Source: a virus (lineage: Duplodnaviria > Heunggongvirae > Uroviricota > Caudoviricetes). From it: 30,976 bases of DNA. A model generated the notes under the pieces. That model was not told the DNA's origin. It searched no databases and saw only the letters and a list, made by a program, of their open reading frames with translations. The position numbers and the translations under genes are program-made. This document shows positions 3,001 through 29,996 of the stretch, piece after piece. Positions within the stretch are counted from its first letter, which is position 1, and each line of letters begins with the position of its first letter. The stretch lies in IMG/VR virus record IMGVR_UViG_3300030444_000240; one strand, 5' to 3'.

Positions 3001-3267
3001 TCAGGTCAAAATACCTGGGATGTACAAGGCTCAGTAGGTATGTCTACGGGGTGGTTAGCTAATACCAGTACAGATGGTAATCATAGCCACTCACTGTCCG
3101 GCACAGCAGCATCTGCAGGTGCACACGCGCATACTGTCGGTATTGGTGCTCATACGCACTCTGTTGCGATTGGCTCACATGGACACACCATCACCGTTAA
3201 CGCTGCTGGTAACGCGGAAAACACCGTCAAAAACATCGCATTTAACTACATTGTGAGGCTTGCATAA
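1..3267 (+). CDS. stf: Side tail fiber protein, lambda Stf-like (5' partial; frame open from window position 1)
   Basis: Translation begins [24 protein letters not shown], then a long Ala/Ser/Thr-rich segment with KTSETNA repeats, and ends with PIPWPSD...[10 protein letters not shown] and His-rich GAHTHS/GSHGHT repeats and [11 protein letters not shown], matching the lambda Stf architecture as recalled. The central part (about 1380-2550) is a different, non-repetitive domain, and there is a tandem repeat of a [28 protein letters not shown] unit at about 1129-1350. Confidence 0.9.
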
Positions 3268-3838
3268 TGGCATTCAGAATGAGTGAACAACCACGGACCA
3301 TAAAAATTTATAATCTGCTGGCCGGAACTAATGAATTTATTGGTGAAGGTGACGCATATATTCCACCTCATACAGGTCTGCCTGCAAACAGTACCGATAT
3401 TGCACNNNNNNNNNNNNNNNNNNNNNNNNNNNNNNNNNNNNNNNNNNNNNNNNNNNNNNNNNNNNNNNNNCATCTCGTTGAAGATCATCGGGGTAAAACG
3501 GTTTATGACGTGGCTTCCGGCGACGCGTTATTTATTTCTGAACTCGGACCGCTACCGGAAAATGTTACCTGGTTGTCGCCGGGAGGGGAATATCAGAAGT
3601 GGAACGGCACAGCCTGGGTGAAGGATACGGAAGCAGAAAAACTGTTCCGGATCCGGGAGGCAGAAGAAACAAAAAACAGCCTGATGCAGGTAGCCAGTGA
3701 GCATATTGCGCCACTTCAGGATGCTGTAGATCTGGAAATCGCAACGGAGGAAGAAATCTCGTTGCTGGAAGCATGGAAGAAGTATCGGGTGTTGCTGAAC
3801 CGTGTTGATACATCAACTGCACCTGATATTGAGTGGCC
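3141..3838. repeat. Direct repeat copy 1 (stf 3' end plus tfa), about 700 bp, nearly identical by eye to 27794-28482
   Basis: Aligned by eye: tattggtgctcatacgcact... through ...gatattga(g/a)tggcc, with scattered substitutions. Copy 1 contains the N gap. Confidence 0.8.
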
Positions 3839-3860
3839 GATAATTCCTGTAACATCATAG
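3267..3860 (+). CDS. tfa: Tail fiber assembly protein (Tfa), copy 1; interrupted by an N gap
   Basis: [46 protein letters not shown] ... matches lambda Tfa as recalled; the ATG overlaps the stf stop (TAATG). Residues across 3406-3470 are unknown. Confidence 0.85.
3406..3470. other. Assembly gap or masked bases (65 N)
   Basis: Run of n characters in the sequence. Confidence 1.
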
Positions 3861-3972
3861 TCATTATTTATTTGTTTTGCTGACATGTTGTATACGACAA
3901 CGTGTCAGCAGTTTGACTGGTATTATAACGAATATATTGTAATGTTTTCTGGTGTTATTAATTGTTGTTTTA

Positions 3973-4926
3973 TTACCATATATCTATGGGTTTTGTTTTC
4001 TGCTCATCTAAACAAAATGCACAGATGTAAGCCCCCTTACTTCGGTTGTACTGAACCGTTTCTAAAGCAGAGTCAAGATGTTTACTATCAAAGTTCCAGC
4101 TTTTTTCCATAACAGAAACACATTTTCTGCAATAGAAACTTTCTTTTGAGTTAGTATCTCCTGAATCATTTTTAGTGTAGCCAAAGAATTTTTTTGCTGA
4201 TTCCTTTGAACATGCGGAAATGGCTGCAGTGAACTCATAATGAGTTTGAAGCATAGCCCATACAATACCTGAAAATTCTTCATCCTCGTCTTCATCTAAT
4301 CCTATATTAATGCCGCCAGAGGAATGTATTGCTTTATATTTATACCTATGCCATATCCAGTGTGCTGATTCAGTATTTAGATAGTTGTGAGCACGTACAA
4401 CTGATGTGAAAATTAGCTCTGGCATTATATCTGTTTTTTTATCAACCGTATGCATAAAACGATTTCTTAGAATGCGCATACTATTAAACCAAGTAATAAA
4501 GTCATCAGGCAGTGATTTAGAGGCGAAAGTATTATATACTTTAATTAAATCTTGGGCGTCTAATGTGTGGAAGTCTGAAAATGAAATGTTACCTTCACTA
4601 TCAGGTTTAGGTGTATTGCGAGTTGCATTCGTGATAAGTAGATAAGGTGATATTTCGACGATAAGTCCTTTTAGTCTGAATTCAATAGATTGAAGTATCA
4701 AATTAAAAGATGTAATCAATTTTGGTCTAGCAAATAACCAATAATGCTCTAAATTTTTAATATCTGATTCTGTATAGAATTCAGACGTTTTACAATAACT
4801 ATTCCAAAGGTTTATATCTCTGTAATCATAAGCTAAATCGGCAATTTTTTCCCAAGCCTCATTTACCATGTGGTCAGCCATTGTATAAAAATCAGTCTTT
4901 GTTGGAATGTCAGTTATCATTATCAA
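3973..4926 (-). CDS. Hypothetical protein with HEPN-like Rx4H motif and C-terminal CxxC...CxxC zinc-ribbon-like motif (candidate Abi-type protein)
   Basis: 317-aa ORF in AT-rich DNA just downstream of tfa. Contains RNRFMH (R-x4-H) in the middle and CRKC...CAFC near the C-terminus. No confident family assignment. Confidence 0.5.
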   Translation of the reverse strand: MIMITDIPTKTDFYTMADHMVNEAWEKIADLAYDYRDINLWNSYCKTSEFYTESDIKNLEHYWLFARPKLITSFNLILQSIEFRLKGLIVEISPYLLITNATRNTPKPDSEGNISFSDFHTLDAQDLIKVYNTFASKSLPDDFITWFNSMRILRNRFMHTVDKKTDIMPELIFTSVVRAHNYLNTESAHWIWHRYKYKAIHSSGGINIGLDEDEDEEFSGIVWAMLQTHYEFTAAISACSKESAKKFFGYTKNDSGDTNSKESFYCRKCVSVMEKSWNFDSKHLDSALETVQYNRSKGAYICAFCLDEQKTKPIDIW

Positions 4927-5157
4927 TCTACCTTTGGGTCTTTATTGTTGTCTATCAAGATATAATATTCAGGCTGGAGTGGCTAATGTTGATCTACTTA
5001 TTTTCTCCCGGTAAGTCAGTTTATCGCGATATAAGCCGCATTTGATTTTGGCGACTATGGTCGTGTTAGGTATGTATCTGGCGTGTTACTGCGCCAGATT
5101 AAATATAAACCAATAATATTAAAGGGTGTTACTCTCTTGACAGATTTAGGGAACAAA

Positions 5158-5393
5158 TCACTCGTCAGCTGACTCCCAAGTATCTTTCAGAGTTTCCTGA
5201 ACAAAAGTTTTAGCTGAATCTTTATCGGCGGTGCGCCTAACAGAAAAACCATCGTTGCTGGTGGCTTTTACGATCATCTCCACATCGTCATAATGCTCGC
5301 CAATGTATTGGGTTAATTCTTCCTTTAATGCGTCTACAGCGCCGTTTGGCATTTGGTCATTTTGTCTTTGGCTATGGAGATCTCAATACGCAT
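5158..5393 (-). pseudogene. dinI: DinI-family protein gene, apparently frameshifted near its 5' end
   Basis: ORF 5158-5352 ends ...[12 protein letters not shown] (DinI-like C-terminus). An upstream ATG at 5393 in another frame encodes [11 protein letters not shown] (DinI-like N-terminus) before a stop. A LexA box lies immediately upstream. Confidence 0.5.
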
Positions 5394-5406
5394 AACATTT
5401 CTTTTG

Positions 5407-5426
5407 TACTGCGTTTGTAGACAGTA
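5407..5426 (-). promoter_or_regulatory. Putative LexA (SOS) box upstream of the dinI-like gene
   Basis: TACTGCGTTTGTAGACAGTA fits CTG-N10-CAG with palindromic TACTG/CAGTA ends, 13 nt upstream of the ATG at 5393. Confidence 0.5.
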
Positions 5427-5634
5427 TTATTCTTATCTGTGTAAATAAACAGTATCAAGACTTCGTTTTAGCTGCATAAGAAAAAAGAGATGGATACATT
5501 CGGAAAGATTTTGATGGTGGTAGGCTAAGTGAATAGCCTAAAGGTGTTTTACCCCAATTATTCCCCGGTATTTCTCCGCATAAAAAACAATCATAAAAAC
5601 AACAGCCATAATAGGCTGGTTCTTAAGGGATTTT

Positions 5635-5674
5635 TGGTCCACGAGAGAATTTGAACCTCCGACCCCCGACACCC
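5635..5674 (-). other. tRNA 3'-end-like fragment (tRNA-Pro-like T-arm and acceptor, ending CCA); possible att remnant
   Basis: Reverse complement reads GGGGTCGGAGGTTCAAATTCTCTCGTGGACCA, resembling a tRNA T-loop and acceptor 3' end. No D-arm or anticodon arm upstream, and the T-stem pairing is imperfect. Confidence 0.3.
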
Positions 5675-5696
5675 CATAATGGTGTAATTAATCAGG

Positions 5697-6065
5697 TTAA
5701 ATATTTAGCAGATCCTCTACAATATCATTAAACCCAGATGCCTGTTTAGATACAGAATTGAATAAGTCTCTAAGTGCTTGTGTTTGCTCAAAAGTTTCCC
5801 AAAGTGTTTTATAACTTGGCGTTACAATTGCTAATACTAAGCCTTCCGCCCATGACCATTCATGTTCATCAAAATAGTAGCGATATTTTCTGCTGTATAT
5901 AACAAAATCCTTTTCCTTATATTTAGCATGAAACACAACTTGAATTATATCCTGTGTACCATTAACAAGGTTTTCAGGCGCATCAATTGCCATCCAATTT
6001 ATCATTTTTTGGACAGTTAACTTATTTAATGAAACAATTAGCTTTGTGGTTTTATCGTTATGCAT
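5697..6065 (-). CDS. Hypothetical protein (122 aa), second gene of a two-gene operon
   Basis: ORF in AT-rich DNA; its ATG lies 2 nt after the stop of the upstream ORF (TAAttATG). No recognisable motifs. Confidence 0.5.
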   Translation of the reverse strand: MHNDKTTKLIVSLNKLTVQKMINWMAIDAPENLVNGTQDIIQVVFHAKYKEKDFVIYSRKYRYYFDEHEWSWAEGLVLAIVTPSYKTLWETFEQTQALRDLFNSVSKQASGFNDIVEDLLNI

Positions 6066-6067
6066 AA

Positions 6068-6529
6068 TTAGTCCAGTTGCATATCTTTCACAATTTCGTT
6101 AACTCTTGAGTTGAGTATACTCAACTTCTCATAGAGCTTCCAGGCTTGGTCTTGGTCATTGATATTAATGGAGATTTCTTTTCTTCGAAAGATTCCTTTG
6201 GGTTTGACTTCATCAAAAAATATATCAATCTTTGAGCGTTCCTTGGTTGGAAGCCTGCTGAAAAGGCTTTCAGTTAGCACTGCACACTCAGTAAACTCCT
6301 TACGTATAAATTCTTTCTGAGTAACCCAGTCTCCAATAGCATCATTTATCAATGAGGCTTTTTTTTGAAGATTGCTATGGATTTCAGGTATTCGAACCTT
6401 GTTTCTGAGAGTGGCCTTCAATGAACGCGTCGTAAAAAAAAGTTTTACAGTTACAACAAAACCGACAATACCCGCTAGGGAGGATATGTCAGTTACCGTC
6501 TGTGATAGGGGCCAAGTCAGGATATCCAT
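6068..6529 (-). CDS. Hypothetical protein (153 aa) with one predicted N-terminal transmembrane helix, first gene of a two-gene operon
   Basis: Hydrophobic stretch SSLAGIVGFVVTVKLFF near the N-terminus; tightly coupled to the downstream ORF. Confidence 0.5.
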   Translation of the reverse strand: MDILTWPLSQTVTDISSLAGIVGFVVTVKLFFTTRSLKATLRNKVRIPEIHSNLQKKASLINDAIGDWVTQKEFIRKEFTECAVLTESLFSRLPTKERSKIDIFFDEVKPKGIFRRKEISININDQDQAWKLYEKLSILNSRVNEIVKDMQLD

Positions 6530-6559
6530 GATGAAAAATCCAATGCTTAAGTTGATACG

Positions 6560-6585
6560 AAAAAACCCGCATATGCGGGTTTTTT
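6560..6585 (-). terminator. Intrinsic terminator-like hairpin (bidirectional)
   Basis: A-run, cccgc-atat-gcggg stem-loop, T6 run. Confidence 0.5.
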
Positions 6586-6711
6586 CGTCGCTCGGGAGCC
6601 GCGGCTCCTTTGCGTATCCTTTTTTGTCTCCTCACCGTCTGGTCGGTGTCCTGCTGAGACTGCTAACTTCCTGTTTTTGTTGGTGTTGTCCTTACACCGT
6701 CCAATCATGAT

Positions 6712-6744
6712 TGGTGGAGCTGGCGGGAGTTGAACCCGAGTCCG
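6712..6744 (-). other. tmRNA (ssrA) 3'-end-like fragment; probable attachment-site core remnant
   Basis: Reverse complement GGACTCGGGTTCAACTCCCGCCAGCTCCACCA closely matches the E. coli ssrA 3' end as recalled (one mismatch). No tmRNA body upstream. Confidence 0.5.
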
Positions 6745-6816
6745 TATTTTTATAATTAGCTGAAATAAAACGATTAATACTAACCATTTTATTCTGCGGA
6801 TCTTTTGCGGCTCCTT

Positions 6817-7716
6817 TTATGTCTGGATGTGGTCGTCAACACATCCTCTTTTAAATACAGGCGCTTTTACCTTAGTTGGATCATCTGTTTTAAAGATTTT
6901 CAATCGTTCACTGAAGAACATTACCTCAGATCCTTTGTACCGATCTTGAGCACTGTAGTTTATTCCATATACTAATGATGATGTCTTATACATAGCTTGG
7001 ATCTCAGGAGTGTTATCGTAAGAAACAATCCAAGGTGTTTTAATATTATTCTGTACGACTTTTGCAACCCTAACATGATCATCATGATTATAATGGTTGA
7101 TATATAAACCTTTACCTTTTATGTAATAAGGTGGATCCAAATATGTTAATGAGTTTTGTGGCAATTGAATAACTATTTTTTTAATGAAATCAATTGCATC
7201 CATGTTATATAAATCTATTCTGTGACGATTTTCTGATATTTTATGGATTCGAGAAATCAAATCACTCTTATTATAGCGAGCGTCAAGCTTCCATTTCCCT
7301 TCTTGATTTTTACCGCCAATTACTCCACCTTTTAATATTCCAGAACGATTTGTTCTATTGAGAAAAAAGGTTGAGAAACCAATTGTTAAAAGATCATGGT
7401 CTTTAGGATTATTAATTATATCTTTCTGCCTAAACCATTCATCCATTGTAACTTCAGTTCTTTCAATTAAAGAACATAATTGATCTGCATGATTTAATAC
7501 ACTGTGCCAAAAAGCATAAACAGAAATATTAATATCATTAAGGATGATTTTTTCAGCTGCATTTAGATGTAACAGTTTCAATGCTAAACCAGCACCCCCA
7601 GCATATGGTTCGGCATAATGTATAGGCGAAAGATTATTTTCTTCAATAAGCCGAAGCATGAAATTTGCAAGCTTGCCTTTACCGCCAGGATAGCGAAGTG
7701 GGGTGTTAAAACGCAT
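6817..7716 (-). CDS. DNA N6-adenine methyltransferase, Dam/D12 class
   Basis: N-terminal RYPGGK, EPYAGGAG (AdoMet-binding motif I-like) and DPPY catalytic motif; 299 aa. Confidence 0.8.
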   Translation of the reverse strand: MRFNTPLRYPGGKGKLANFMLRLIEENNLSPIHYAEPYAGGAGLALKLLHLNAAEKIILNDINISVYAFWHSVLNHADQLCSLIERTEVTMDEWFRQKDIINNPKDHDLLTIGFSTFFLNRTNRSGILKGGVIGGKNQEGKWKLDARYNKSDLISRIHKISENRHRIDLYNMDAIDFIKKIVIQLPQNSLTYLDPPYYIKGKGLYINHYNHDDHVRVAKVVQNNIKTPWIVSYDNTPEIQAMYKTSSLVYGINYSAQDRYKGSEVMFFSERLKIFKTDDPTKVKAPVFKRGCVDDHIQT

Positions 7717-7750
7717 ATGATACCTCTAAATGTCAGATCTAAAGTATATC

Positions 7751-7789
7751 AAAAAAAGGGCTTTGTGGCCATCACATAAAGCCCTTTTT
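7751..7789 (-). terminator. Intrinsic terminator between the OLD-like gene and the MTase gene
   Basis: gggcttt-loop-aaagccc hairpin flanked by an A7 run and a T5 run; on the minus strand the stem is followed by a T-run. Confidence 0.6.
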
Positions 7790-7795
7790 AATCAA

Positions 7796-9529
7796 TTAGT
7801 TATCTGACAGATATGATGAGATGGTAGCAGAATCGACACCATGTCCACTTGTCATAATAACTTTAAGACTCTTTATTAGTTCATTCTTGAAGCTATCCGA
7901 TTGCACAGGATTTTTCTCGACCCAATATCGATATGGGTTATCTTTAACTCGCCCTTTTACTTGGGCCTGAAATTGAGTCGTATGTGCAAAATCTTTAAAC
8001 AGTTTTCTAACTATCCCGCCATGGTTTTTGTTAACTTTTTTATAATTATCTATAAGGATTTTTAAATCAATCGGAGCGTTACCAATCTTTAGCGTTGCAA
8101 TTATGTCTTTAGCTGTTTTCATAAAAACAGCTTTTGTAAATTTATTTTTATTTTCCCAATATGCATCATCAGGTGGTAAATTATATAAAAACTCAAAAAT
8201 CATTTGGTCTGGAGGTAAGGTGCTTGGAAGCAAACATAAGTTTTTTTCTTTTTTGGCTTTTTTTGCATTAGCACTATTGTCGTGAACAACATCACCGTCT
8301 AAGACGATCAAGCTTTTAGCTGTAAATTCTGGTATTTTTCTTGCCATTAAGTCAAGCATGGCAGAGCAGCTAATATTTATATTCCCTAATGGATTTAATA
8401 TTTTATTTATTTTTCGATCTGTTATCAATTGTTTGAAAAAGTCGAAACCTTCTTTGTCTTCAAAATATACATTTGCCTTTGGAAGACAAATGTCATCATT
8501 AATTTTTACAGTTTCAACATGTAAATCAGCGTGGATATCTGTCCATGAAAGATTATTCTTTGTTTTAATATCTCCATATGTGTCTGTAAGATATATTGTT
8601 TTAAAGCTATCACTATCTTGTTTTGAACGATTATAGATATCCTCTATTATTAATGGAGAGTGCGAGGTCATGATTATTTGCAGATCGTATTGTTTTGCTG
8701 CTTTAGTTAGAATATTAATTAGCTCTAACTGTGCAGCAGGGAAAAGACCTGCATCGGCTTCATCAATTAACAATATTCCGCCATGATAATCAGAATAAGT
8801 TTCCTTCAATCTTTTAAATGAAAAAATTGCTTGGATTAATTGTCCAACATTATCTTCACCAACAGATACTGATTGGTGATCATAATTGTCACCATGGACA
8901 ACCATTGAATCGATAGTACCTTTTGTTGCTGTTACTGAGCTTCCATTGTTTTTTAGTAAGAGTTGGTTACTCATCATTCTAATTTCATCAGAATTTTCAT
9001 TGATGTACTGAACATCCCGTGTTGAGTAATCAGTCCTTAATGTAATAGGAAGAAGTCGTGCTAAGCTTAAAAAAATAACAGGATGAGTAACGTTTCTACT
9101 TTGGTTTTTTTCCGGTATTGAATCATTTCCCCTGACTACAGGCCTTGATTTATCTCTGTCACTGTAGCTGTATAAACCTAATGTTAGTTTTTCAAGATGT
9201 TTGTTCGATGCACCATCATAGACACTAATTTTGACGTCCATTGAACCAGGAACATCAAATTGTTCTGAAAGCCTAAAATGTTCGCTGAAAGCTGACTTGA
9301 AGCTGCCATTTGTTAATGTTTTATATTGTGTTAAATCAGTCTCAGGGTTTTTGGTAAAGTCCTTTGTAAAGCTAAATATTTGGGCGATAATGCCAAGAAT
9401 TGTGGATTTAGATGTGCCATTTTTACCACAAATAACAGTTAGGCGAGAACCAAACTCGATGTTTATATTTTTCAGTCCGCGAAACTTCACAACATTTATA
9501 TTTTTTAGTTTGGTAATTTGATTTGCCAT
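7796..9529 (-). CDS. OLD-family ATP-dependent nuclease-like protein (ABC ATPase plus C-terminal Toprim-like domain)
   Basis: Walker A ICGKNGTSKST, Walker B ILLIDEAD, TSHSP motif, then C-terminal VYFEDKEGFDFF and LIVLDGD (DxD). Start chosen at MANQITKL (9529), which has a GGAG 9-13 nt upstream and a palindromic hairpin beyond it; the ORF track extends to 9580. Confidence 0.7.
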   Translation of the reverse strand: MANQITKLKNINVVKFRGLKNINIEFGSRLTVICGKNGTSKSTILGIIAQIFSFTKDFTKNPETDLTQYKTLTNGSFKSAFSEHFRLSEQFDVPGSMDVKISVYDGASNKHLEKLTLGLYSYSDRDKSRPVVRGNDSIPEKNQSRNVTHPVIFLSLARLLPITLRTDYSTRDVQYINENSDEIRMMSNQLLLKNNGSSVTATKGTIDSMVVHGDNYDHQSVSVGEDNVGQLIQAIFSFKRLKETYSDYHGGILLIDEADAGLFPAAQLELINILTKAAKQYDLQIIMTSHSPLIIEDIYNRSKQDSDSFKTIYLTDTYGDIKTKNNLSWTDIHADLHVETVKINDDICLPKANVYFEDKEGFDFFKQLITDRKINKILNPLGNINISCSAMLDLMARKIPEFTAKSLIVLDGDVVHDNSANAKKAKKEKNLCLLPSTLPPDQMIFEFLYNLPPDDAYWENKNKFTKAVFMKTAKDIIATLKIGNAPIDLKILIDNYKKVNKNHGGIVRKLFKDFAHTTQFQAQVKGRVKDNPYRYWVEKNPVQSDSFKNELIKSLKVIMTSGHGVDSATISSYLSDN

Positions 9530-9551
9530 GTTTCTATCTTGCTCCGTAAAA

Positions 9552-9570
9552 TGGCCACAAATTGTGGCCA
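9552..9570. other. Perfect 9+1+9 palindrome between the int 3' end and the OLD-like start
   Basis: tggccacaa-a-ttgtggcca; on the minus strand it is followed by ATTTTA. Could be the int terminator or a recombination or regulatory site. Confidence 0.4.
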
Positions 9571-9587
9571 ATAGTTTCATGCTTGGA

Positions 9588-10754
9588 TTATATTGTTATC
9601 TTCTTCAAGCTTGTTTGTCCATCATATTCCTTCAGATATGAGCCATAGTGCCTGAAAAGCATCTCAGGCCCTTTATGCCCCATTTGAGCTGCAAGCCAAA
9701 ACAGGTTTGCTCCCCGGCTGATATGTCTGGTGGCGAATGTATGCCTGGTTTGATATGGGTTTCTGTAACGAATACCTGCTTTTCGCAATGTTGGCACCCA
9801 TGCTTTTTTCCTAATTGCATCAGCACTTGCCCAGGGTTTATTGGTCTTTGGATCTTCAAAGACAGTAGCATCCTTCATGAATGTAAATGGCTTCTGGTTT
9901 ATCAACGCCAACATTGCTTCTTCAGTCAGTTCAACTTTACGGGTACCGGCTTTTGTCTTTGTTCCTTTGATAACTCCGACAACACTTGCGCTCTGAACAT
10001 GGGCTGTTTTTCCAACAAAGTCGATATCATGCCATCGTAGGGCACATAATTCAGAACTACGCAGGCCTGTATGTATGGCGAACCGGAACAGATTTTCCCA
10101 TTGTTTGTTTCCGGCTGCTGCTAGTAATGCATCAACTTCTGCTGGTGATAGCGGATCAACCACATAGCTGCTTTCTGCTTCTGACTTATCACTTTGGTAG
10201 CGCGAAGCAGTTACCAACGATACGGGGTTAATTTGAAGTACCCCATCGGTTACGGCTTCATCAAGTGCTGACCGCAGGAAAGATAACTGGTTGCGAATTG
10301 TTTTTAAGGTCGTTTTCTGGCTTTGAATCCACGCTTTCAGGATTGCTGGTGTTAATTCACTTGCAGGGCAAATGTGGAGTGAGGCTAACGCACTACGGCA
10401 TTTTTTATAACCACCAATCGTAGATGGTGAAAGTTTTCTCGTTTCGCAGATTTCAAGGTATTCGTCCAGGTACATTTTTACCGTTTTGCCTGCAGCAGCA
10501 TTACCAAAAATTTTCAAACGAGCAGAACGGGGAAAATATTCCGCATAAATGAATGTTCCCCTTTCGATCTTATTATGAATTTCGCCGAGTGTGCGCTCGG
10601 CGTATTTAATGTTCTTTGGTGTTACTTCCAGATTGGAAAGAGGCTCACGACATTTAACGCCTTTGTAGGTGAAAGTTATATTGATCGTTTCGCCCTGGCG
10701 GTGTTTCCTGATTGTTACGCCGCGCGGTAGTTTGAGCAGTTTTGTCTGGCCCAT
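9588..10754 (-). CDS. int: Tyrosine site-specific integrase
   Basis: 388 aa; C-terminal catalytic region with RHTFATRH (HxxR) and LFWLAAQMGHKGPEMLFRHYGSY (catalytic Tyr); N-terminal arm-binding-like segment. Confidence 0.9.
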   Translation of the reverse strand: MGQTKLLKLPRGVTIRKHRQGETINITFTYKGVKCREPLSNLEVTPKNIKYAERTLGEIHNKIERGTFIYAEYFPRSARLKIFGNAAAGKTVKMYLDEYLEICETRKLSPSTIGGYKKCRSALASLHICPASELTPAILKAWIQSQKTTLKTIRNQLSFLRSALDEAVTDGVLQINPVSLVTASRYQSDKSEAESSYVVDPLSPAEVDALLAAAGNKQWENLFRFAIHTGLRSSELCALRWHDIDFVGKTAHVQSASVVGVIKGTKTKAGTRKVELTEEAMLALINQKPFTFMKDATVFEDPKTNKPWASADAIRKKAWVPTLRKAGIRYRNPYQTRHTFATRHISRGANLFWLAAQMGHKGPEMLFRHYGSYLKEYDGQTSLKKITI

Positions 10755-10933
10755 TTTGCAACCTCACTAAGATCAATCCACCTCTCCTTAACGCCTTCAA
10801 CCTTTAAAACCTGAACACCTTCACGCCAAACACCGCGCTGTACACGTTTGTTTATTGCTTCAGGAGTTTCGCCAGTTTCTTTGCAATAAGTTGAGATAGG
10901 AACACAATCGAGGTTCAGCATATGTTTCTCCAC
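10715..10933 (-). CDS. xis: Excisionase-like small DNA-binding protein
   Basis: 72-aa ORF overlapping the int start on the same strand, as in lambdoid xis-int; basic, W-rich small protein. Confidence 0.55.
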   Translation of the reverse strand: MEKHMLNLDCVPISTYCKETGETPEAINKRVQRGVWREGVQVLKVEGVKERWIDLSEVAKWARQNCSNYRAA

Positions 10934-10980
10934 TTAGCCCGCTGCACATGGGCAGTAATATCAAATTCCAGTCCTGATAA

Positions 10981-11196
10981 TTAATTTTGTTCTCTGGTTG
11001 CTACTTGTTTTATTGGCCTGATGCTGTCCAGGAGCAGACGGCGGCGCATGTTTGGCGCGCCCCAACGGTAACCAGTCTTTTTGTCGTAGGATTCACAACG
11101 TCCGACAACCCAGGAGGTTTCAGTGGAATGTAATTTCATCCGCTTTTCACCGTCTCGGGTGATAACAATTCCTGTATGAGTTTTTATCACGCTCAT
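10981..11196 (-). CDS. Hypothetical phage early protein (71 aa)
   Basis: ORF in the leftward early operon; start overlaps the upstream gene stop. Confidence 0.4.
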   Translation of the reverse strand: MSVIKTHTGIVITRDGEKRMKLHSTETSWVVGRCESYDKKTGYRWGAPNMRRRLLLDSIRPIKQVATREQN

Positions 11197-11555
11197 TTTT
11201 TATTCTCCGGTGCTTTCGGCATTACTGCCCAGTGGGTAATATTGACGTTTTCAAGGTCCCCGACCTGAAATGTCCACTGCCATTCTCCGGTTTCTTTTTG
11301 CCCCCATGTGTACCAGAGAGAACGCCAGCCAATCAGCCAGCCTTCTCCATTAGCATCAAATAACAGAACACTTTCATGTGCTGGCGGCAGTTCAGCTGAC
11401 ACTGGTATTACTTTGTTTTCCAGTGCTGCACATTTAGCTTCAAGCGCATCGAATTTACGTATCAGGTATTCAGCATCCGTTTCATTCACTTTCAGATCTC
11501 GCGGTACACATTTCCCGCGAAGAAACCCTTCCATTTCGAAAACATTCATGCGCAT
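11193..11555 (-). CDS. Hypothetical phage early protein (120 aa)
   Basis: ORF in the leftward early operon, translationally coupled to its neighbours. Confidence 0.45.
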   Translation of the reverse strand: MRMNVFEMEGFLRGKCVPRDLKVNETDAEYLIRKFDALEAKCAALENKVIPVSAELPPAHESVLLFDANGEGWLIGWRSLWYTWGQKETGEWQWTFQVGDLENVNITHWAVMPKAPENKK

Positions 11556-12082
11556 TTGCGTAACTCCGATAACTCGTTGAAGCGCTCAATAAACATCCCG
11601 TAGGCATGGCTCGGTGCCAGTGGAATCACGTTGAACATCTCTGTTGCCGGGATACCTTCCAGTACAGGCCAGAAAGAGCCATCATCAAGCCCGAGATCGC
11701 GGCGTTCGGTTGCCAGCATGATGAGATCGGCATATTTCACAGGCGTGCTCATAACCGTGGGTAACCCGTATTTCTCACGGATTACGGCGTCTATTTTTTC
11801 TTCCATCCGTTTATAGTCGGGAAGAAGGCGTTTCAGTGGCGCGGGGATGTCCTGGCAATACGCTTCTGTCGCATCATGCATTAACGCTTCAAAAGCAAAT
11901 TCCTGCGGTACCAGCTGGCTGCAAAGCACCGCATGTTGGGCGACGCTGTAGAAGTGTGAAAGATGGCCGGCAAAGCGACAGATATTTGAAAGGGAAACCG
12001 CGATATCGTTAATATCGATGTTGTCTTTATTTATCCTGTCATAATAAAAATGCTTCCCGGAAAAAGTTTTAATAAATGACAT
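11546..12082 (-). CDS. HD-domain phosphohydrolase-like protein
   Basis: FAGHLSHFYSVAQH ... HDATEAY resembles H...HD metal-dependent phosphohydrolase motifs. Start set at MSFIKTF (GGAG RBS); the ORF track extends to 12142. Confidence 0.55.
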   Translation of the reverse strand: MSFIKTFSGKHFYYDRINKDNIDINDIAVSLSNICRFAGHLSHFYSVAQHAVLCSQLVPQEFAFEALMHDATEAYCQDIPAPLKRLLPDYKRMEEKIDAVIREKYGLPTVMSTPVKYADLIMLATERRDLGLDDGSFWPVLEGIPATEMFNVIPLAPSHAYGMFIERFNELSELRKCA

Positions 12083-12627
12083 TTTGTTCTCCACGTTATA
12101 TGCGCTGCACCGCGCTGAATTCGGGTAAAAGGAAGCCCTCACCGTCCGGCGATTATTGAGTCAATTACATTTCCATAAATGCCCCCGTAGGGGCGGTTAG
12201 TTTCTCCACAAAACAGAGAAGAACACCTGCGGTGGCAGCCGCCCGGATGGATTGGGTTATGAGCCCGTCGTCCGATGATGCTCTTCTCTGTTTTGTAAAA
12301 AGGACGGTACCAGCCGGAAGCAAGGGTACAAGCTGGTACCGCCAAGACAACACACAGCATAAAGTTGTGGTGCCGGGTGCCTCCCGGTGCCTGGCGAAGG
12401 TTGTACACCAGACGGGTGGGTATCCACAGAAGGTCGACTGTCAGCCTTAACCTTAACCCGCGTGCGCTGAGCCGCATTCACCACAACGCTAAGGATTCTC
12501 TCTGGTTGAAAATACTTAGCTGTTATGTGCCTGCTTTTAGCCACATCAGGCGAGGTGGACCTGGTTATTCCCCAACAACAAGGATTCGGTATAATCTGGA
12601 TATCCCAACAACAGGTAGGAAGGAAAT

Positions 12628-12711
12628 ATGTACGTAGATAGCAATGAAAAATTTCATGTTCCGGTAAATCAGAGACCAGCACCGATCCCTGAGCCGAAAC
12701 CTGAAATGTAA
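12628..12711 (+). CDS. Small ORF (27 aa) preceding the membrane protein gene
   Basis: TATAAT at 12590-12595, AGGAAGG RBS, ATG at 12628; encodes MYVDSNEKFHVPVNQRPAPIPEPKPEM. Speculative. Confidence 0.3.
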   Translation: MYVDSNEKFHVPVNQRPAPIPEPKPEM

Positions 12712-12721
12712 GGGAATAGAG

Positions 12722-13201
12722 ATGACTCGAGACGATCTAGCATTCGATATTCATTATTCTTTCTTTCTTGAGAAAATGAATTACACCCTTTTAAATCGGA
12801 TAGACAAGAGCATAACTCTTGTTCTCATTGTCTTGGGCTTTTCTGTTTTTGCGCCATATAGCAATATGTTTATTTTTGGCGCATCTGTAGCTATTTTGTC
12901 GGTGCTTCAATTGGTATACCAATTTGGGCAGGAAGCTGGCTTATCAAAGGAACAGATGCGACAGTATAAAAGGTTGATTGTTGAGTTTTCCTCCCTTTCT
13001 GATGACGAACTACGCACTCGGTTTTTAAAGGTTCAAGACGCTGATAGTAATCCATGGAGATCTTTACAAGATGCTGCGTTCAAACGGACCTGTATTGCGC
13101 TGGGACGTGTTGATGAGTCAGAAATATCATTCATGCATAGCGTTATCGCATGGTTTGCTGGAGATTTGCCTCGGTCAAAAAGGTGTAATAATGACAAATA
13201 G
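12722..13201 (+). CDS. Membrane protein of unknown function (two predicted TM helices), convergent with cI
   Basis: 159 aa; hydrophobic segments ITLVLIVLGFSVFAPY and IFGASVAILSVLQLVY. Lies in the immunity region on the strand opposite the repressor, with its own putative promoter. Confidence 0.55.
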   Translation: MTRDDLAFDIHYSFFLEKMNYTLLNRIDKSITLVLIVLGFSVFAPYSNMFIFGASVAILSVLQLVYQFGQEAGLSKEQMRQYKRLIVEFSSLSDDELRTRFLKVQDADSNPWRSLQDAAFKRTCIALGRVDESEISFMHSVIAWFAGDLPRSKRCNNDK

Positions 13202-13431
13202 AATTCCCATAATCCCTAACCATGTACCTCCAAAGCCCAGACCACCATCACCAAAGTCACACAGGCTTTATGAGTATGAATTAATAATGGATTCTATATT
13301 GAGATGACCAAATGAATGCATTTATATATACATGGAAAGAGGATCATATACCCTTAAAACCTCGTCCTTCACCGCCAGAACCGAAGCCAAAATCCCGTTA
13401 AGTGTTGGGGATCTCCAGATTGTTAAAGAGC

Positions 13432-13456
13432 GAAGCGTCCTATAGGGCGCTTTTTT
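13432..13456 (+). terminator. Possible intrinsic terminator (imperfect hairpin plus T6)
   Basis: gcgtcc-tata-gggcgc followed by tttttt. Confidence 0.35.
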
Positions 13457-13573
13457 GTTGCTAACGAATCATCCTGGACTTCATATGCCCCAGGCGGCTA
13501 CTTCGTGGGCGTCCTACCTGTTCGTTGTTTCTCTTGGGTACATTATGTATCTCAAAGGTACATTGTCAAGTAT

Positions 13574-13595
13574 AAAAAAACCTGCCGAAGCAGGT
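13574..13595 (-). terminator. Intrinsic terminator directly downstream of the repressor gene
   Basis: acctgc-cgaa-gcaggt hairpin followed on the minus strand by a U7 run; 14 nt from the cI stop. Confidence 0.6.
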
Positions 13596-13608
13596 TCATA
13601 AACATTGA

Positions 13609-14283
13609 TTAGGCTTTGATTTTGTATCTTCTTGGTTTTCCTGAGAAAATCACTGTACCAATTATAGAGCAATTACCGTTGATCTTAATGTAAGGTTCAG
13701 GCCAGTTTGGGTTTAATGCTTTGAGGTAACGCTGTGTTCCATCTTCTATCAACCGCTTGAAGGTGGTTTCGCCTGTATCGTGCATCAATGCAATAACGTC
13801 GTCACCGTGGCAGGCAGGGACTTCAGGATCAACAAAAATCATGTCTCCCGGGCGGTACTCATCAATCATTGAATCACCAATCACCCGCAAGATATAAGTC
13901 ATTTCGCCACAGGGTACAGGGCAGGGGTAAGTTTCTGCTGTGCTCAAATCAACCTCAGAATAGCCAACTTCTTTCCATGCTCCGGCCTGTACCCATGATA
14001 TGACAGGGACTAACGTTATTTGTTTGTTAGTGATTGAAACATCAGGTTTTTTTGTGATGTTCGTGGTCTGGTGTTCTTGATCAAGCCATCCGACAGGCAG
14101 GTCGAAACATTTTTCGATGTGCCGCGCCATGCTGTCACCGATATTTTTAGTAGCACCATCTCCCATAAACCTGCTGGTCTGGGTTGGCTCGCGATCAATC
14201 ATAGTGGCAAAGGAAGAATTCCCGCCAACACCATCTCTCAGTTTTCTGGCGTTAGACCGCCGGATGTCATGGATTGTTTTCAT
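13609..14283 (-). CDS. CI-like prophage repressor with S24 (LexA-like) autopeptidase domain
   Basis: 224 aa; C-terminal ILRVIGDSMIDEYRPGDMIFVD ... FKRL resembles the S24 Ser/Lys dyad region. Divergent from a Cro-like gene, with palindromic operators between them. Confidence 0.85.
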   Translation of the reverse strand: MKTIHDIRRSNARKLRDGVGGNSSFATMIDREPTQTSRFMGDGATKNIGDSMARHIEKCFDLPVGWLDQEHQTTNITKKPDVSITNKQITLVPVISWVQAGAWKEVGYSEVDLSTAETYPCPVPCGEMTYILRVIGDSMIDEYRPGDMIFVDPEVPACHGDDVIALMHDTGETTFKRLIEDGTQRYLKALNPNWPEPYIKINGNCSIIGTVIFSGKPRRYKIKA

Positions 14284-14298
14284 AACGAAATTAAAACC

Positions 14299-14368
14299 CT
14301 TGTACCGTTAAGGTACAAGTATCTTGAAGGTTCATTTCAATCATGTAATATGTACACCGGAGGTACAT
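14299..14368. promoter_or_regulatory. Operator and promoter region between cI-like and cro-like genes
   Basis: Two palindromes sharing TGTAC/GGTACA half-sites: CTTGTACCGTTAAGGTACAAG (14299-14319) and ATGTACACCGGAGGTACAT (14350-14368). Confidence 0.55.
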
Positions 14369-14373
14369 ATTGT

Positions 14374-14574
14374 ATGAAAGCGTATTGGGACTCTTTAACC
14401 AAAGAACAGCAGGGCGAGTTGGCCGGAAAAGTTGGCTCAACACCTGGCTACTTACGGCTGGTTTTCAATGGCTATAAAAAAGCCAGTTTTGTGCTGGCTA
14501 AAAAACTTGAGCAATGCACGTCAGGTGCAATTACGAAATCTGACTTAAGACCGGATATCTATCCGAAAGATTAA
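14374..14574 (+). CDS. Cro-like (YdaS-type) small HTH regulator
   Basis: 66-aa ORF starting immediately after the operators (MKAYWDSLTKEQQGELAGKVGSTPGYLRLV...). The track ORF 14071-14574 overlaps cI and is an over-extension. Confidence 0.6.
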   Translation: MKAYWDSLTKEQQGELAGKVGSTPGYLRLVFNGYKKASFVLAKKLEQCTSGAITKSDLRPDIYPKD

Positions 14575-14605
14575 CAGAACACCTTCAATTTTTAACCACA
14601 GAACG

Positions 14606-15169
14606 ATGAGGCTAACCGTGGGTAAGTATCACTGGAAAGTAGAAAAACAGCCTGAGTGGTACGTGAAAGCTGTCAGAAAAACTATCGCAGCGTTGCCGGG
14701 TGGTTACGCTGAAGCAGCTGACTGGCTGGATGTAACAGAGAACGCATTATTTAACCGCCTTCGTGCCGATGGCGATCAGATTTTCCCGCTGGGATGGGCA
14801 ATGGTTTTACAGCGCGCGGCTGGCACTCACTACATTGCGGATGCTGTCGCACAGTCTGCTGGTGGGGTGTTCGTATCGCTTCCTGAAATTGAGGAAGTAG
14901 AGAACGCCGATATAAACCAGCGCCTGCTGGAAGTCATCGAACAGATCGGGAATTACTCAAAGCAGATTCGTTCGGCAATCGAAGATGGGGTCGTGGAGCC
15001 ACACGAGCAGACAGCAATTAATGATGAGTTGTATCTGTCAATTTCGAAGCTCCAGGAACATGCAGCACTGGTCTACAAAATCTTTTGCGCTCCAGAAAAG
15101 AGTGACGCCCGCGAGTGTGCAGCTCCGGGCGTCGTGGCGTTTTGTGTCTGTGGAGAAACTAACGCATGA
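14606..15169 (+). CDS. Phage early regulatory protein (CII/YdaT-like position)
   Basis: 187-aa ORF following the cro-like gene; family assignment is uncertain. Confidence 0.45.
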   Translation: MRLTVGKYHWKVEKQPEWYVKAVRKTIAALPGGYAEAADWLDVTENALFNRLRADGDQIFPLGWAMVLQRAAGTHYIADAVAQSAGGVFVSLPEIEEVENADINQRLLEVIEQIGNYSKQIRSAIEDGVVEPHEQTAINDELYLSISKLQEHAALVYKIFCAPEKSDARECAAPGVVAFCVCGETNA

Positions 15170-16002
15170 ACAGTTTAACGGCAAATAACCGTTTGTCGCA
15201 ACAGCTGGTGGTCAGTGTCGCTGAACACCTGTTGTTACGGCATGAATGCAGATTACCAAATCTCCTGGCTGTAAGTAACCACAGAGAACTTTACCTGACT
15301 GTGGGGGGCGAGTTGTGCAGGAACTTAACCGCTGGTTTCGTGACGGAAGAGGACTTTATGTTCATGTTATTCGTTGGGAGCCAGAAACACAGCGCGTTAT
15401 CTATCTTCGCAAAGACTACCCGCATGAGTGCTTTAGTCCTTTGTGGAAATTCAGGCGTGATTTTGTTGAGTGTGAAGGACCACCAGCACATTGATTCTGC
15501 CATTCCGGGACGTTACACTGTTCAGGCACCTTATAAAGCGGGTGCCGGGATTGGCGTCCTGGAATTGATCAAGGCGATATATGACGCGCCAGCGTCTTTT
15601 TTATCGTCCGCATTTGCTCACATCAAAGTTATGGTGGGCTGGGCGGGGGCATCGAAAGATGCGCCGGTTTCCTTGATCACCGGTTACGCCAACCCCGTTC
15701 AGTTCACCACCAGCGAAATTGGCGTTTCCGGTGGTGGAAGTATTTCACCGATCAAGGAGGCTGCCATCATGGCTACTGTCCCAGCCCTCACTCGTCTGAA
15801 TGATGAAGACTTACATAAACTCAGTTATGTAACAACTGCACTACGTGCTCTGCGCAAGGTAACTCTTTCGGATCCGCAGGCACATCAGGTTCTGGTAGAA
15901 ACCCTTCTTAACTTGCAAGCTGAACGTATTCGTCTGGCGGATAAGGCTAATTTTCATATTCACCGTCTCCTGAATATCAGCGGAGGGCATCGTCATGCTT
16001 AA
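15166..16002 (+). CDS. Hypothetical early ORF, possibly a composite of several small genes or frameshifted
   Basis: A 278-aa ORF, but a protein-like alternative frame runs through 15309-15480 after a G6 tract (15303-15308), and there is an internal RBS-ATG at about 15769 (AAGGAGG ... ATGGCTACT). Confidence 0.3.
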   Translation: MNSLTANNRLSQQLVVSVAEHLLLRHECRLPNLLAVSNHRELYLTVGGELCRNLTAGFVTEEDFMFMLFVGSQKHSALSIFAKTTRMSALVLCGNSGVILLSVKDHQHIDSAIPGRYTVQAPYKAGAGIGVLELIKAIYDAPASFLSSAFAHIKVMVGWAGASKDAPVSLITGYANPVQFTTSEIGVSGGGSISPIKEAAIMATVPALTRLNDEDLHKLSYVTTALRALRKVTLSDPQAHQVLVETLLNLQAERIRLADKANFHIHRLLNISGGHRHA

Positions 16003-18893: not shown

Positions 18894-18912
18894 TTAAGAG
18901 GAGAAACGAAGT

Positions 18913-19722: not shown

Positions 19723-19723
19723 G

Positions 19724-20719
19724 GTGACCGTGAGAGCACTACTGACCCCTGAAATTGCCCCGCGTATGGGGATCGTATTGTTCAGGCCAGGTTCAGAGCT
19801 GATGCCCCTGTTTATGCAGGGGCGTGTCCTGCTGGAGCCTGAGCCGGAGCGTTATTCATCTTTCGCCAGTGGTGCCGTTCCGGCGGCATCACAACCGCTG
19901 GCGGATGATCCTGCCGTTCGGGCCGTGTTCCGCAATGAGGCAGTGATCCGTCGTGCTGGTGGCGTGGAATGTCTTGAAAGCTGGTTACTTCGTGAAAAAG
20001 GCTGCCAGTGGCCTCATTCCGACTGGCACAGCGAGAACATGACCACAATGCGACACGCTCCGGGTGCAATCCGTCTGTGCTGGCACTGCGATAACCAGCT
20101 GCGCGATCAGTTCACGGAACGGCTGGAATCAATGGCAACGGATAACTGTGCCCGCTGGGTGTTGTCTGTTGTGCGTCGGGATCTCGGTTTTGATGACAGT
20201 CACGTTGTGACAATGCCGGAACTGTGCTGGTGGCTGATTCGTAATGATCTGGCGGATGCCTTACCGGAAAGTGCAGCCCGTAAGGCACTGAGATTACCGA
20301 AGCCTGTTGTGCCGTCTGTTACCCGGGAAAGTGACCTTGTGCCTTCGGTTCCTGCCACCAGCATCATCCAGGATAAGGCGAAAAAGGTGCTGGCGCTGAA
20401 AGTGGATCCGGAGTCGCCGGAGTCTTTTATGTTACGCCCAAAACGTCGCCGCTGGGTTAATGAAAAGTACACGCGCTGGGTTAAGACGCAGCCGTGTGCA
20501 TGTTGTGGAAAGCCCGCCGATGATCCCCATCACCTGATAGGCCACGGTCAGGGTGGAATGGGTACAAAAGCGCATGACCTTTTTGTGTTGCCTTTGTGCA
20601 GAAAGCATCACGACGAGCTGCATGCGGATACCGTGGCATTTGAAGAGAAGTATGGCTCCCAGCTGGAGCTGATATTTCGTTTTATCGATCGTGCGCTGGC
20701 GATTGGTGTGCTGGCCTGA
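19724..20719 (+). CDS. DUF968-like phage protein with C-terminal Cys/His (HNH-like) motif
   Basis: 331 aa; C-terminal [18 protein letters not shown] ... CRKHHDELH. Sits upstream of Q, as DUF968 genes do in lambdoid prophages. Confidence 0.6.
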
Positions 20720-20736
20720 TTTTGTGGAGAAAGTTG

Positions 20737-21241: not shown

Positions 21242-21269
21242 CTAATAAGTATTATTTCGGGTAGGGATT

Positions 21270-29358: not shown

Positions 29359-29420
29359 CGGTCTCGAAAACCGGAGTAGGGGCAACTCTACCGGGGGTTC
29401 AAATCCCCCTCTCTCCGCCA
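29359..29420 (+). other. 3' 62 nt of tRNA-Ser(CGA) (serU-like): anticodon arm through CCA; prophage att core, not a complete tRNA
   Basis: CGGTCTCGAAAACCGGAGTAGGGGCAACTCTACCGGGGGTTCAAATCCCCCTCTCTCCGCCA has anticodon loop CTCGAAA, a long variable arm and a T-arm; there is no matching acceptor 5' strand or D-arm upstream. Confidence 0.7.
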
Positions 29421-29438
29421 CTTTATCAATGACTTATC

Positions 29439-29491
29439 NNNNNNNNNNNNNNNNNNNNNNNNNNNNNNNNNNNNNNNNNNNNNNNNNNNNN
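29439..29491. other. Assembly gap or masked bases (53 N)
   Basis: Run of n characters 18 nt after the tRNA fragment. Confidence 1.
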
Positions 29492-29996
29492 GAAGGGTTA
29501 GATCGTCACTGTTTTCTGTTCGATACTGTGACATTCAGCACTTGATTCGCTATGGATCTGACAGGAAGGTTTTGAGCGAAAATTTGCAGTTATTCAGTCG
29601 TTTTCTTATCGGTCACCATTATTCTTTTAGACATTGATCCTACAAAGCTGCCGCAAAGTTGGTGGTAGGAACTGAAGTTGCGTAGAGAAGGGGTCAATAC
29701 CCGGAGGCAAACATGGGCTGGCAAAAGTGTAGCGGTATTAGGCGCAGCTATTTAGCCTAGTTATGTTTTATGAAAACTTGATATCATATAAGTGTCTTAC
29801 TTATTGGCTGTAAATAAGTTTTTCCTAAGGAATTGTTTCTTGAGTATCATTTGTAACTGTAACGGAATTTATAATCCTTTGCTTTATTGTTACGGTATTT
29901 TTTATCACACCCTATTTTTTATGTGGTTTTTTATACTGAAGTTTGGCAAAGTGAACTTTATATGCATATACTTCATCCTGGTTTCAGTTAAGTTGG

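What the first reader, a model, noticed from the sequence alone, without database searches (positions are those of the whole stretch)
5635..6744. Two different tRNA/tmRNA 3'-end fragments inside the cargo region suggest serial or composite integration
A tRNA-Pro-like 3' end (5635-5674, minus) and a 33-nt ssrA 3' end (6712-6744, minus, one mismatch to E. coli ssrA as recalled) lie within 1.1 kb, and a tRNA-Ser 3' fragment is at 29359-29420. Only 3' fragments are present, which is the signature of attachment-site cores. The ssrA-like core is on the 3' side of the integrase gene with the OLD/MTase cargo between them, so the integrase may be ssrA-specific while the right end of the region carries a serU-type junction. 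The element may be a recombinant of prophages from different loci or carry nested integrative islets.
Basis: partly seen in the sequence, partly recalled or inferred. Interest (0 to 1): 0.5.

Follow-up and report, generated by a model that had tools for sequence, protein, structure and literature searches.

The report
Phage attachment core plus old relic
The two RNA-gene fragments are real: one is the working attachment site an E. coli lambda-like phage uses to insert into the tmRNA gene, and the other is a decayed leftover of a proline-tRNA attachment site, which is ordinary phage mosaicism.

Summary
All three fragments are real and no complete tRNA or tmRNA gene is present. 6712-6744(-) is the last 33 nt of ssrA with one mismatch. 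5635-5685(-) is the 3' part of proL, decayed. 29359-29420(+) is 62 nt of serU, exact.

The ssrA piece is the att core of the neighbouring integrase and excisionase (9588-10933). The same integration module sits at ssrA in JJ1886, 2017-02-2CC and KCJ3K291. Each has an intact ssrA at the tail end and this fragment at the integrase end.

In the window, phage arms lie on both sides of the core. That arrangement matches a 44.6-kb circular phage molecule and the excised form of the 2017-02-2CC prophage. So it is an attP-type or tandem internal junction, not a chromosome boundary.

The homology runs 155 bp past ssrA and includes a terminator. The mismatch lies 5' of the crossover.

The proL piece is a relic that travels with the DinI/tail-fibre arm, which abuts intact proL in true proL lysogens. 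The serU piece is a similar relic in a thrW-type prophage end.

The window is a recombinant of an ssrA phage and a thrW prophage remnant, with the switch at 20408-20487. This is known biology, so interest is low.

The parts
5158..5352 (-). DinI-like gene, part of the conserved tail-side arm (tail fibre, tfa, hypothetical protein, DinI)
   Evidence: Pfam DinI, E=9e-14. The same arm lies next to intact proL in strain 2020N21-246 and next to intact ssrA in HS.
5603..5618 (-). Terminator-like hairpin directly 3' of the proL relic. It is the phage-supplied proL terminator of the ancestral attP arm.
   Evidence: Terminator scan. The identical sequence follows intact proL in a true proL lysogen.
5635..5685 (-). 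Relic proL (tRNA-Pro GGG) att core, covering the 3' part of the gene from the anticodon stem to CCA. Decayed: 3 substitutions and a 2-nt deletion in the acceptor strand.
   Evidence: The 63-nt identity block of a proL-integrated prophage is defined by its two copies in L018.
5697..6529 (-). Two tightly coupled ORFs (153 aa at 6068-6529, then 122 aa at 5697-6065) of unknown function, probably a moron cassette
   Evidence: ORF list. No Pfam, PADLOC or PHROG match. Present in only 13 of 5,426 complete E. coli genomes, always in this arm.
6557..6711 (-). Copy of the native ssrA downstream flank, including a perfect 16+16 hairpin terminator (6557-6588). It forms the tail-side arm of the att site.
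   Evidence: Alignment. 89-97% identical to the flank of ssrA in 4,179 of 5,426 genomes. Hairpin found.
6712..6744 (-). ssrA att core: the last 33 nt of tmRNA, with G to T at position 6
6745..6816 (.). Integrase-side arm of the att site. It contains one copy (6796-6824) of a 29-nt imperfect direct repeat whose partner (6601-6629) lies on the other side of the core.
   Evidence: Identical in all ssrA-type prophages aligned. Repeat found. Any role as an arm-type binding site is inferred only.
6817..7716 (-). DNA adenine methyltransferase, cargo between the att site and int
   Evidence: Pfam MethyltransfD12. PADLOC PD-Lambda-5_B, E=5e-124.
7796..9580 (-). AAA-family ATPase (OLD/Gabija/Septu-like), cargo
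   Evidence: Pfam AAA_15 and AAA_21. PADLOC PtuA, GajA and ATPase-Toprim hits.
9588..10754 (-). Tyrosine integrase specific for ssrA
   Evidence: Pfam Arm-DNA-bind_2 plus Phage_integrase. 96% identical to the integrase of circular phage pZ1323HEC0010-3. Unrelated to the integrase of the proL prophage.
10715..10933 (-). Excisionase
   Evidence: phrog_2917 excisionase, E=1.6e-45.
20408..20487 (+). Recombination joint between the ssrA-type phage (to the left) and the thrW-type defective prophage (to the right), inside the DUF968 gene
   Evidence: The SNP pattern switches here between KCJ3K291-like and S43-like sequence.
29359..29699 (+). serU relic: 62 nt of the serU 3' part plus about 280 bp of serU downstream flank. 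It lies in the end module of the thrW-type prophage. Positions 29439-29491 are masked as N.
   Evidence: The same module occurs in S43, RM10410 and UK_Dog_Liverpool.

Best explanation
The interval 5635-6744 is the stretch of a lambda-like phage between its tail-fibre genes and its integration module, the equivalent of lambda's b region plus attP.

The 33-nt ssrA 3' end is the working att core of the adjacent tyrosine integrase and excisionase. These phages insert into the 3' end of ssrA. The tail-side arm then supplies the last roughly 25 nt of tmRNA, the CCA end and a 155-bp copy of the native downstream flank with its terminator, so tmRNA stays intact. The displaced 3' fragment ends up next to the methylase / ATPase / integrase end.

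Strand exchange must lie 3' of core position 6-8. The T at position 6 always stays with the integrase arm, and the intact ssrA in the same lysogen keeps G.

In this window the core has the integrase arm on one side and the phage tail arm on the other. It is therefore an internal, attP-type junction. My preferred reading is an unrecombined attP. A circular ssrA-phage genome would have entered a resident defective thrW prophage by one homologous crossover (joint at 20408-20487), or the phage is present as a tandem double lysogen.

The proL fragment is not used by this element. It is a decaying half-site left from an earlier attP(proL). It still travels with the DinI/tail-fibre arm and marks the point where a different integration module was joined on.

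Shown: the identity of the fragments, the int-ssrA linkage, the crossover bounds, the attP-type arrangement and the mosaic joint. Inferred: how the attP-type junction came to lie here, and the site-specific origin of the proL breakpoint.
For: 1. Fragment identities and their significance.
2. In JJ1886 and 2017-02-2CC, complete prophages run smpB-ssrA | tail arm ... int-ATPase-MTase | ssrA fragment | native flank.
3. In 12 loci carrying this methylase, the same arm and core follow it. Beyond the core lies csiD, a P4-type island, a P2-like phage or ypjA.
4. T versus G at core position 6 distinguishes the displaced fragment from intact ssrA within JJ1886.
5. pZ1323HEC0010-3 is a 44.6-kb circular lambdoid genome. 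It carries the same tail arm, core and a 96%-identical integrase, which is the attP form.
6. The 2017-02-2CC prophage carries both arms of the window, at 99.3% and 98.8-99.9% identity.
7. Citrobacter phage phiNP shares the module at 85% identity, and the aligned stretch reaches the last base of that record, at window 6712, the 3' end of the ssrA core.
8. The DinI arm plus the proL core abuts intact proL in 2020N21-246. The integrase of that phage is unrelated to the one here.
9. The same arm breaks at the same boundary next to different DNA in PA45B.
10. The mosaic joint is located.
Against: - The source genome could not be found. What lies left of position 1 and right of 30976 is unknown, so attP retention cannot be separated from a tandem array of two different ssrA elements.
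- No complete E. coli genome in RefSeq has the window's exact 5000-7500 arrangement.
- No experiment shows that this copy of Int/Xis is active.
- The idea that the proL breakpoint arose by integrase action, rather than by illegitimate recombination, rests only on its position near the anticodon loop.
Confidence: 0.8

Rival explanations
1. Tandem array at ssrA. An ssrA phage integrated into ssrA of a strain that already carried an older ssrA prophage or remnant, as in E. coli HS. The fragment at 6712-6744 would then be the displaced core between two independent elements. A later exchange, for example an origin-symmetric inversion, with the oppositely oriented thrW prophage would have joined the thrW-type right end.
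For: - HS and 12 other genomes have exactly window 3471/5000-6744 directly downstream of intact ssrA as a remnant.
- Tandem arrays behind this same integrase arm are common, with P4-type islands or a P2-like phage as the neighbour.
- In UK_Dog_Liverpool the ssrA and thrW prophages lie in opposite orientation, so one crossover would invert the segment between them.
- Tandem arrays and within-array hybrids are described in PMC7192596.
Against: - It needs two events plus a resident element with the same arm.
- The local sequence is identical to what an attP would give, so nothing in the window favours this reading over attP retention.
Confidence: 0.35
2. Landing pads. The proL and serU fragments are retained because they act as secondary attB sites inside prophages, letting proL- or serU-specific phages integrate into a prophage.
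For: - Host-derived attB sequences in lambdoid prophage ends, used by other phages, are documented in PMC8112680.
- The serU piece is 100% identical over 62 nt and keeps about 280 bp of native flank.
Against: - The proL copy has lost 2 nt of the acceptor strand and carries 3 substitutions.
- No occupied copy was seen in the loci examined.
- The fragments lack the 5' part of the genes.
Confidence: 0.12
3. Nested integrative islet. The 5690-6711 segment is a small mobile element inserted between two att cores.
For: It is bounded by two tRNA-type fragments and is rare, present in 13 of 5,426 genomes.
Against: - It has no recombinase gene, and its two ORFs match no family.
- The two bounding fragments come from different genes, so they are not a direct repeat.
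- The segment is never seen apart from this arm.
Confidence: 0.03
4. Assembly chimera. Reads from an excised circular phage and from prophages with shared modules were joined wrongly, producing an attP-like contig.
For: - The exact arrangement is absent from 5,426 complete genomes.
- An exact 66-mer across the junction is absent from three large collections.
- The region is full of repeated phage modules.
Against: - Each junction taken alone exists in finished genomes.
- The attP junction exists in a closed circular molecule.
- The joint at 20408-20487 looks like a normal homologous crossover.
Confidence: 0.07

Closest known systems
Phage and island integration into the 3' end of ssrA, with tandem arrays there (CP4-57 in K-12; arrays of integrative elements described in PMC7192596 and PMC4383910)
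   Same: A tyrosine integrase lies next to its att site. The element restores the 3' end of the gene, and a displaced 3' fragment marks the far end. Several elements stack behind one ssrA.
   Different: This integrase has the lambda-like Arm-DNA-bind_2 architecture and is not the P4-type IntA. In the window the fragment has phage arms on both sides.
Lambda b region / attP / int / xis layout
   Same: The gene order is the same: tail fibre, tfa, accessory genes, attP, int, xis, early genes.
   Different: The target is ssrA, not the gal-bio attB. A defence-type methylase/ATPase pair sits between attP and int. The homology with the host site is 188 bp rather than 15 bp.
Host-derived attB sequences inside lambdoid prophages (Nakamura et al. 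2021, PMC8112680)
   Same: Pieces of chromosomal att regions, with some flanking host DNA, sit in prophage ends near accessory genes, and more than one can occur per prophage.
   Different: Those sites derive from yecE, ykgJ/ecpE and ompW, and were shown to be occupied. Here the pieces derive from tRNA genes, one is decayed, and no occupancy was seen.
SopE-phi in S. Typhi, which carries a tmRNA gene fragment at a non-ssrA location (mentioned in PMC7192596)
   Same: An ssrA-type att fragment is found away from ssrA, inside another element.
   Different: That case was read as an off-target insertion. Here a homologous crossover with a resident prophage is the more likely route.

Membership tests
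att core of a tRNA/tmRNA-targeting tyrosine integrase (ssrA fragment, 6712-6744) | Sequence identity to the 3' end of the target gene | tested here: met
   32 of 33 nt match E. coli ssrA, with no chance matches. The fragment also aligns to the ssrA genes of HS and JJ1886.
att core of a tRNA/tmRNA-targeting tyrosine integrase (ssrA fragment, 6712-6744) | Cohesive integration module: integrase and excisionase close to the core | tested here: met
   The integrase is 2.8 kb away, and only the two cargo genes lie between it and the core. The excisionase is adjacent to the integrase.
att core of a tRNA/tmRNA-targeting tyrosine integrase (ssrA fragment, 6712-6744) | In lysogens, an intact target gene at one end and the displaced fragment at the other | tested here: met
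   JJ1886, 2017-02-2CC and UK_Dog_Liverpool.
att core of a tRNA/tmRNA-targeting tyrosine integrase (ssrA fragment, 6712-6744) | The same junction present on an excised, circular element (attP form) | tested here: met
   pZ1323HEC0010-3 is a 44.6-kb circular molecule whose tail arm, core and integrase arm are contiguous.
att core of a tRNA/tmRNA-targeting tyrosine integrase (ssrA fragment, 6712-6744) | Recombination activity of this Int/Xis on this core | not testable with these tools
   This needs an integration or excision assay.
Functional proL att site (fragment at 5635-5685) | An intact core matching proL over the identity block used by proL phages (63 nt) | tested here: not met
   The copy has three substitutions and a 2-nt deletion. 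Similarity fades within the anticodon stem.
Functional proL att site (fragment at 5635-5685) | A cognate integrase nearby | tested here: not met
   The only integrase in the interval is ssrA-type and is unrelated to the proL prophage integrase, aligning only over a 98-aa stretch at 22% identity.
Complete tRNA or tmRNA gene | Full cloverleaf or full tmRNA detectable | tested here: not met
   ARAGORN finds none. Rfam tmRNA scores 24.7 bits, below the 47-bit gathering score, and only the 3' end aligns.
attB-in-prophage landing site (Nakamura 2021) | Host-derived att sequence with flanking host homology inside a prophage | tested here: met
   The serU piece keeps about 280 bp of flank at 95-100% identity to K-12. 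The ssrA core keeps 155 bp of flank.
attB-in-prophage landing site (Nakamura 2021) | Another phage found integrated at that internal site | not tested
   No systematic survey was made, and none was seen in the loci read.

The most novel reading that the evidence does not exclude
Relic tRNA-gene half-sites in the end regions of lambdoid phages may not be passive scars. On this reading, integrase-mediated exchange at att cores is a regular way to swap whole integration modules between phages, with breakpoints at the anticodon-loop crossover. The better-preserved relics, such as the exact 62-nt serU piece with its native flank, would then still serve as landing sites that let other phages nest inside prophages.
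Probability: 0.15. Interest if true: 0.45.

Novelty: new member of a known kind. Interest (0 to 1): 0.2.

Why it matters
It shows how to read this region. The ssrA fragment is an internal phage att site, not a prophage boundary, so prophage-finding tools that use tRNA fragments as end markers would split or mis-bound this element. It also gives a worked example of lambdoid phage arms carrying a layered record of earlier attachment sites (proL, serU). That record is useful for tracing swaps of integration modules. Nothing here changes current understanding of site-specific integration.

Tried and rejected
Finding the source genome:
- An exact 66-mer across 6701-6766 gave no hit in genome contigs, viral contigs or metagenome contigs. 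The pattern itself was verified in the window.
- Exact-protein look-ups did not help. The tfa ORF contains masked N and is not on record. The methylase and the DUF968 protein are too common to be diagnostic, with 2,124 and 21,566 blocks.

Other checks that led nowhere:
- The Rfam tRNA model did not detect the proL half-site even at E up to 10. Direct alignment was needed.
- Pfam, PADLOC and PHROGs gave nothing for the two ORFs between the fragments.
- The phage collection holds no close relative of the tail arm beyond DinI, and only phiNP matches the integration module.

Readings rejected:
- Phage-encoded tRNA pseudogenes. The flanks are the same arms that abut the real genes in lysogens.
- A nested islet. 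There is no recombinase, and the two bounding fragments are not repeats of each other.

Full report
**Observation**

- The last 33 nt of E. coli ssrA match 6712-6744 on the minus strand with a single mismatch, and no match appears in 100 shuffles.
- A 38-nt proL probe matches 5640-5677(-) with one mismatch.
- A 62-nt serU probe matches 29359-29420(+) exactly.
- ARAGORN finds no complete tRNA or tmRNA gene in the window. No tRNA or tmRNA family reaches the Rfam gathering score. With relaxed thresholds the tmRNA model aligns only the 3' end.

**The ssrA fragment**

Window 5000-6744 is 99.8-99.9% identical to the DNA directly downstream of an intact ssrA in E. coli HS and about a dozen other genomes. 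Window 6557-12000 carries the methylase, AAA ATPase and integrase. It is 98-99.9% identical to one end of prophages in JJ1886, 2017-02-2CC and many others.

Reading those prophages end to end gives the same layout each time:
- smpB, then intact ssrA;
- the tail arm, tail, head and lysis genes, then early genes;
- xis, int, ATPase and methylase;
- the ssrA 3' fragment, then native flank (glaH/csiD or ypjA) or, in UK_Dog_Liverpool, a P4-type integrase island.

In twelve loci that carry the identical methylase, the same 33-nt core and integrase-side arm follow it. In three of these the core has a deletion of 1 to 4 nt. What lies beyond the core varies: csiD, P4-type integrase islands, a P2-like phage, or ypjA. 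The integrase is therefore ssrA-specific, and tandem stacking behind ssrA is common.

The multiple alignment and the intact ssrA ends give three further details.
This T always stays with the integrase arm, while the intact ssrA of the same lysogen has G. A related circular phage also differs at position 8. Strand exchange must therefore occur 3' of positions 6-8, within the last 25 nt or so of tmRNA.
- The homology between phage and host does not stop at CCA. It continues for 155 bp (6557-6711) through a perfect hairpin terminator.
- The phage arm thus supplies both the end of the gene and its terminator.

**Configuration in this window**

The core here has the integrase arm on its right and the phage tail arm on its left. 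That is the attP arrangement.
- The same junction is present in pZ1323HEC0010-3. This is annotated as a plasmid, but it is a complete 44.6-kb circular lambdoid genome whose integrase is 96% identical.
- The prophage of 2017-02-2CC carries both arms of the window. Its excised form would reproduce window 5000-12000.
- No complete E. coli genome has this arrangement in its chromosome.

**Mosaic structure of the window**

Window 6711-21023 is 99.65% identical to the ssrA prophage of KCJ3K291. Window 19382-30976 is 99.6-100% identical to a defective prophage in S43. The SNP pattern switches between the two at 20408-20487, inside a DUF968 gene.

In UK_Dog_Liverpool the S43-type element is a thrW-integrated lambdoid prophage. 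Its layout is proA, thrW, int ... tfa, serU fragment, AraC regulator, IS remnant, yagP', paoD. S43 shows the same right-end context, while its left end is broken by IS elements.

One homologous crossover between a circular ssrA-phage genome and a resident thrW prophage would give exactly the window's order and leave attP intact. The alternative is a tandem array at ssrA followed by an exchange with the thrW prophage. In UK_Dog_Liverpool the two prophages lie in opposite orientation, so such an exchange would be an inversion. The window alone cannot separate these two readings, and the source genome was not found.

**The proL fragment**

In strain 2020N21-246 a lambdoid prophage sits at proL. 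Its tail arm (tail fibre, tfa, hypothetical protein, DinI, a short hairpin) is 98% identical to window 3471-5684 and runs straight into intact proL. The two proL copies flanking that prophage define a 63-nt identity block.

The window holds a decayed version of this block, with G29A, C31T, C61T and a 2-nt deletion in the acceptor strand. It is followed on the 3' side by the same phage hairpin. On the other side, unrelated DNA begins near the anticodon stem.

The integrase of the proL prophage is unrelated to the one in the window. In PA45B the same DinI-proL arm is joined to yet other DNA at the same boundary, and that copy is less decayed.

The fragment is therefore a relic half-site of an earlier attP(proL). 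It travels with the tail arm and marks where another integration module was attached. The position of the breakpoint near the anticodon loop suggests an integrase-mediated event, but this is an inference.

The two ORFs between the relic and the ssrA flank match no family. They occur in only 13 of 5,426 genomes, always within this arm.

**The serU fragment**

The 62 nt of serU are followed by about 280 bp that are 95-100% identical to the K-12 serU downstream flank. So this is an old prophage/host junction with captured host DNA. It sits inside the end module (tfa, serU fragment, AraC regulator, IS remnant) of defective prophages found at thrW or at att-lambda. It is not a serU junction of the present element.

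**Comparison with known biology**

Three known phenomena cover what is seen here:
- integration into the 3' end of ssrA, with displaced fragments and tandem arrays (PMC4383910, PMC7192596);
- a tmRNA-gene fragment carried to a foreign site by SopE-phi (PMC7192596);
- host-derived att sequences inside lambdoid prophage ends (PMC8112680).

This locus is a further example of those kinds. The particular combination is an active ssrA attP with a 188-bp host-like block, next to a decaying proL half-site. I have not seen it described, but it adds detail rather than a new principle.

**Verdict**

It is a new member of a known kind, and interest is low.

Noticed in passing
window 6817-9580: The cargo between the att site and int is a methylase that matches PADLOC PD-Lambda-5_B (E=5e-124), next to an AAA ATPase with PtuA, GajA and ATPase-Toprim hits. 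It is probably a phage-borne defence pair. JJ1886 carries RnlAB in its tail-side arm instead.
   Followed up: partly
window 3406-3470 and 29439-29491: Two runs of N (65 and 53 bases) mask sequence inside the tail-fibre assembly gene and inside the serU downstream flank. The second can be read from S43, RM10410 or K-12, where it is ordinary serU flank.
   Followed up: partly
window 3141-3770 and 27793-28413: Two copies of the tail-fibre end and tfa gene, 94-98% identical, lie in direct orientation 24.6 kb apart. Each carries an Rfam IS009 hit (3619-3817 and 28262-28460). Recombination between them could delete everything in between.
   Followed up: no
window 15526-15714: isrK (64 bits) and C4 antisense RNA (82 bits) lie side by side in the early region, upstream of or within an Ash/Rha-type gene. 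This is the P1/P7-like antirepressor control module.
   Followed up: no
window 6601-6629 and 6796-6824: A 29-nt imperfect direct repeat (83% identical) has one copy on each side of the ssrA core. The copies are candidate arm-type integrase binding sites.
   Followed up: no
L004 (NZ_CP148393.1, whole record): A record annotated as plasmid pZ1323HEC0010-3 is a complete circular lambdoid phage genome (terminase to lysis genes, int, attP) with a ParA-family gene next to the integrase.
   Followed up: partly
L033 25122-31791 (UK_Dog_Liverpool): A satellite-like block (integrase, Icd-like protein, primase, SSB) interrupts the terminase large-subunit gene of the thrW prophage. It resembles the helper-embedded satellites of PMC10111431.
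   Followed up: no
window 29164-29373, hit H170 (NZ_AP027170.1): In one strain the match to the left flank of the serU relic stops 15 nt into the fragment, at the anticodon loop. That is what a serU-phage crossover point would look like.
   Followed up: no
window 21270-24024: Downstream of the Q antiterminator, the S43-type part carries a lipocalin-family gene, a YbgA-family gene and an HTH gene before the lysis cassette. These accessory genes are absent from the ssrA-type relatives.
   Followed up: no
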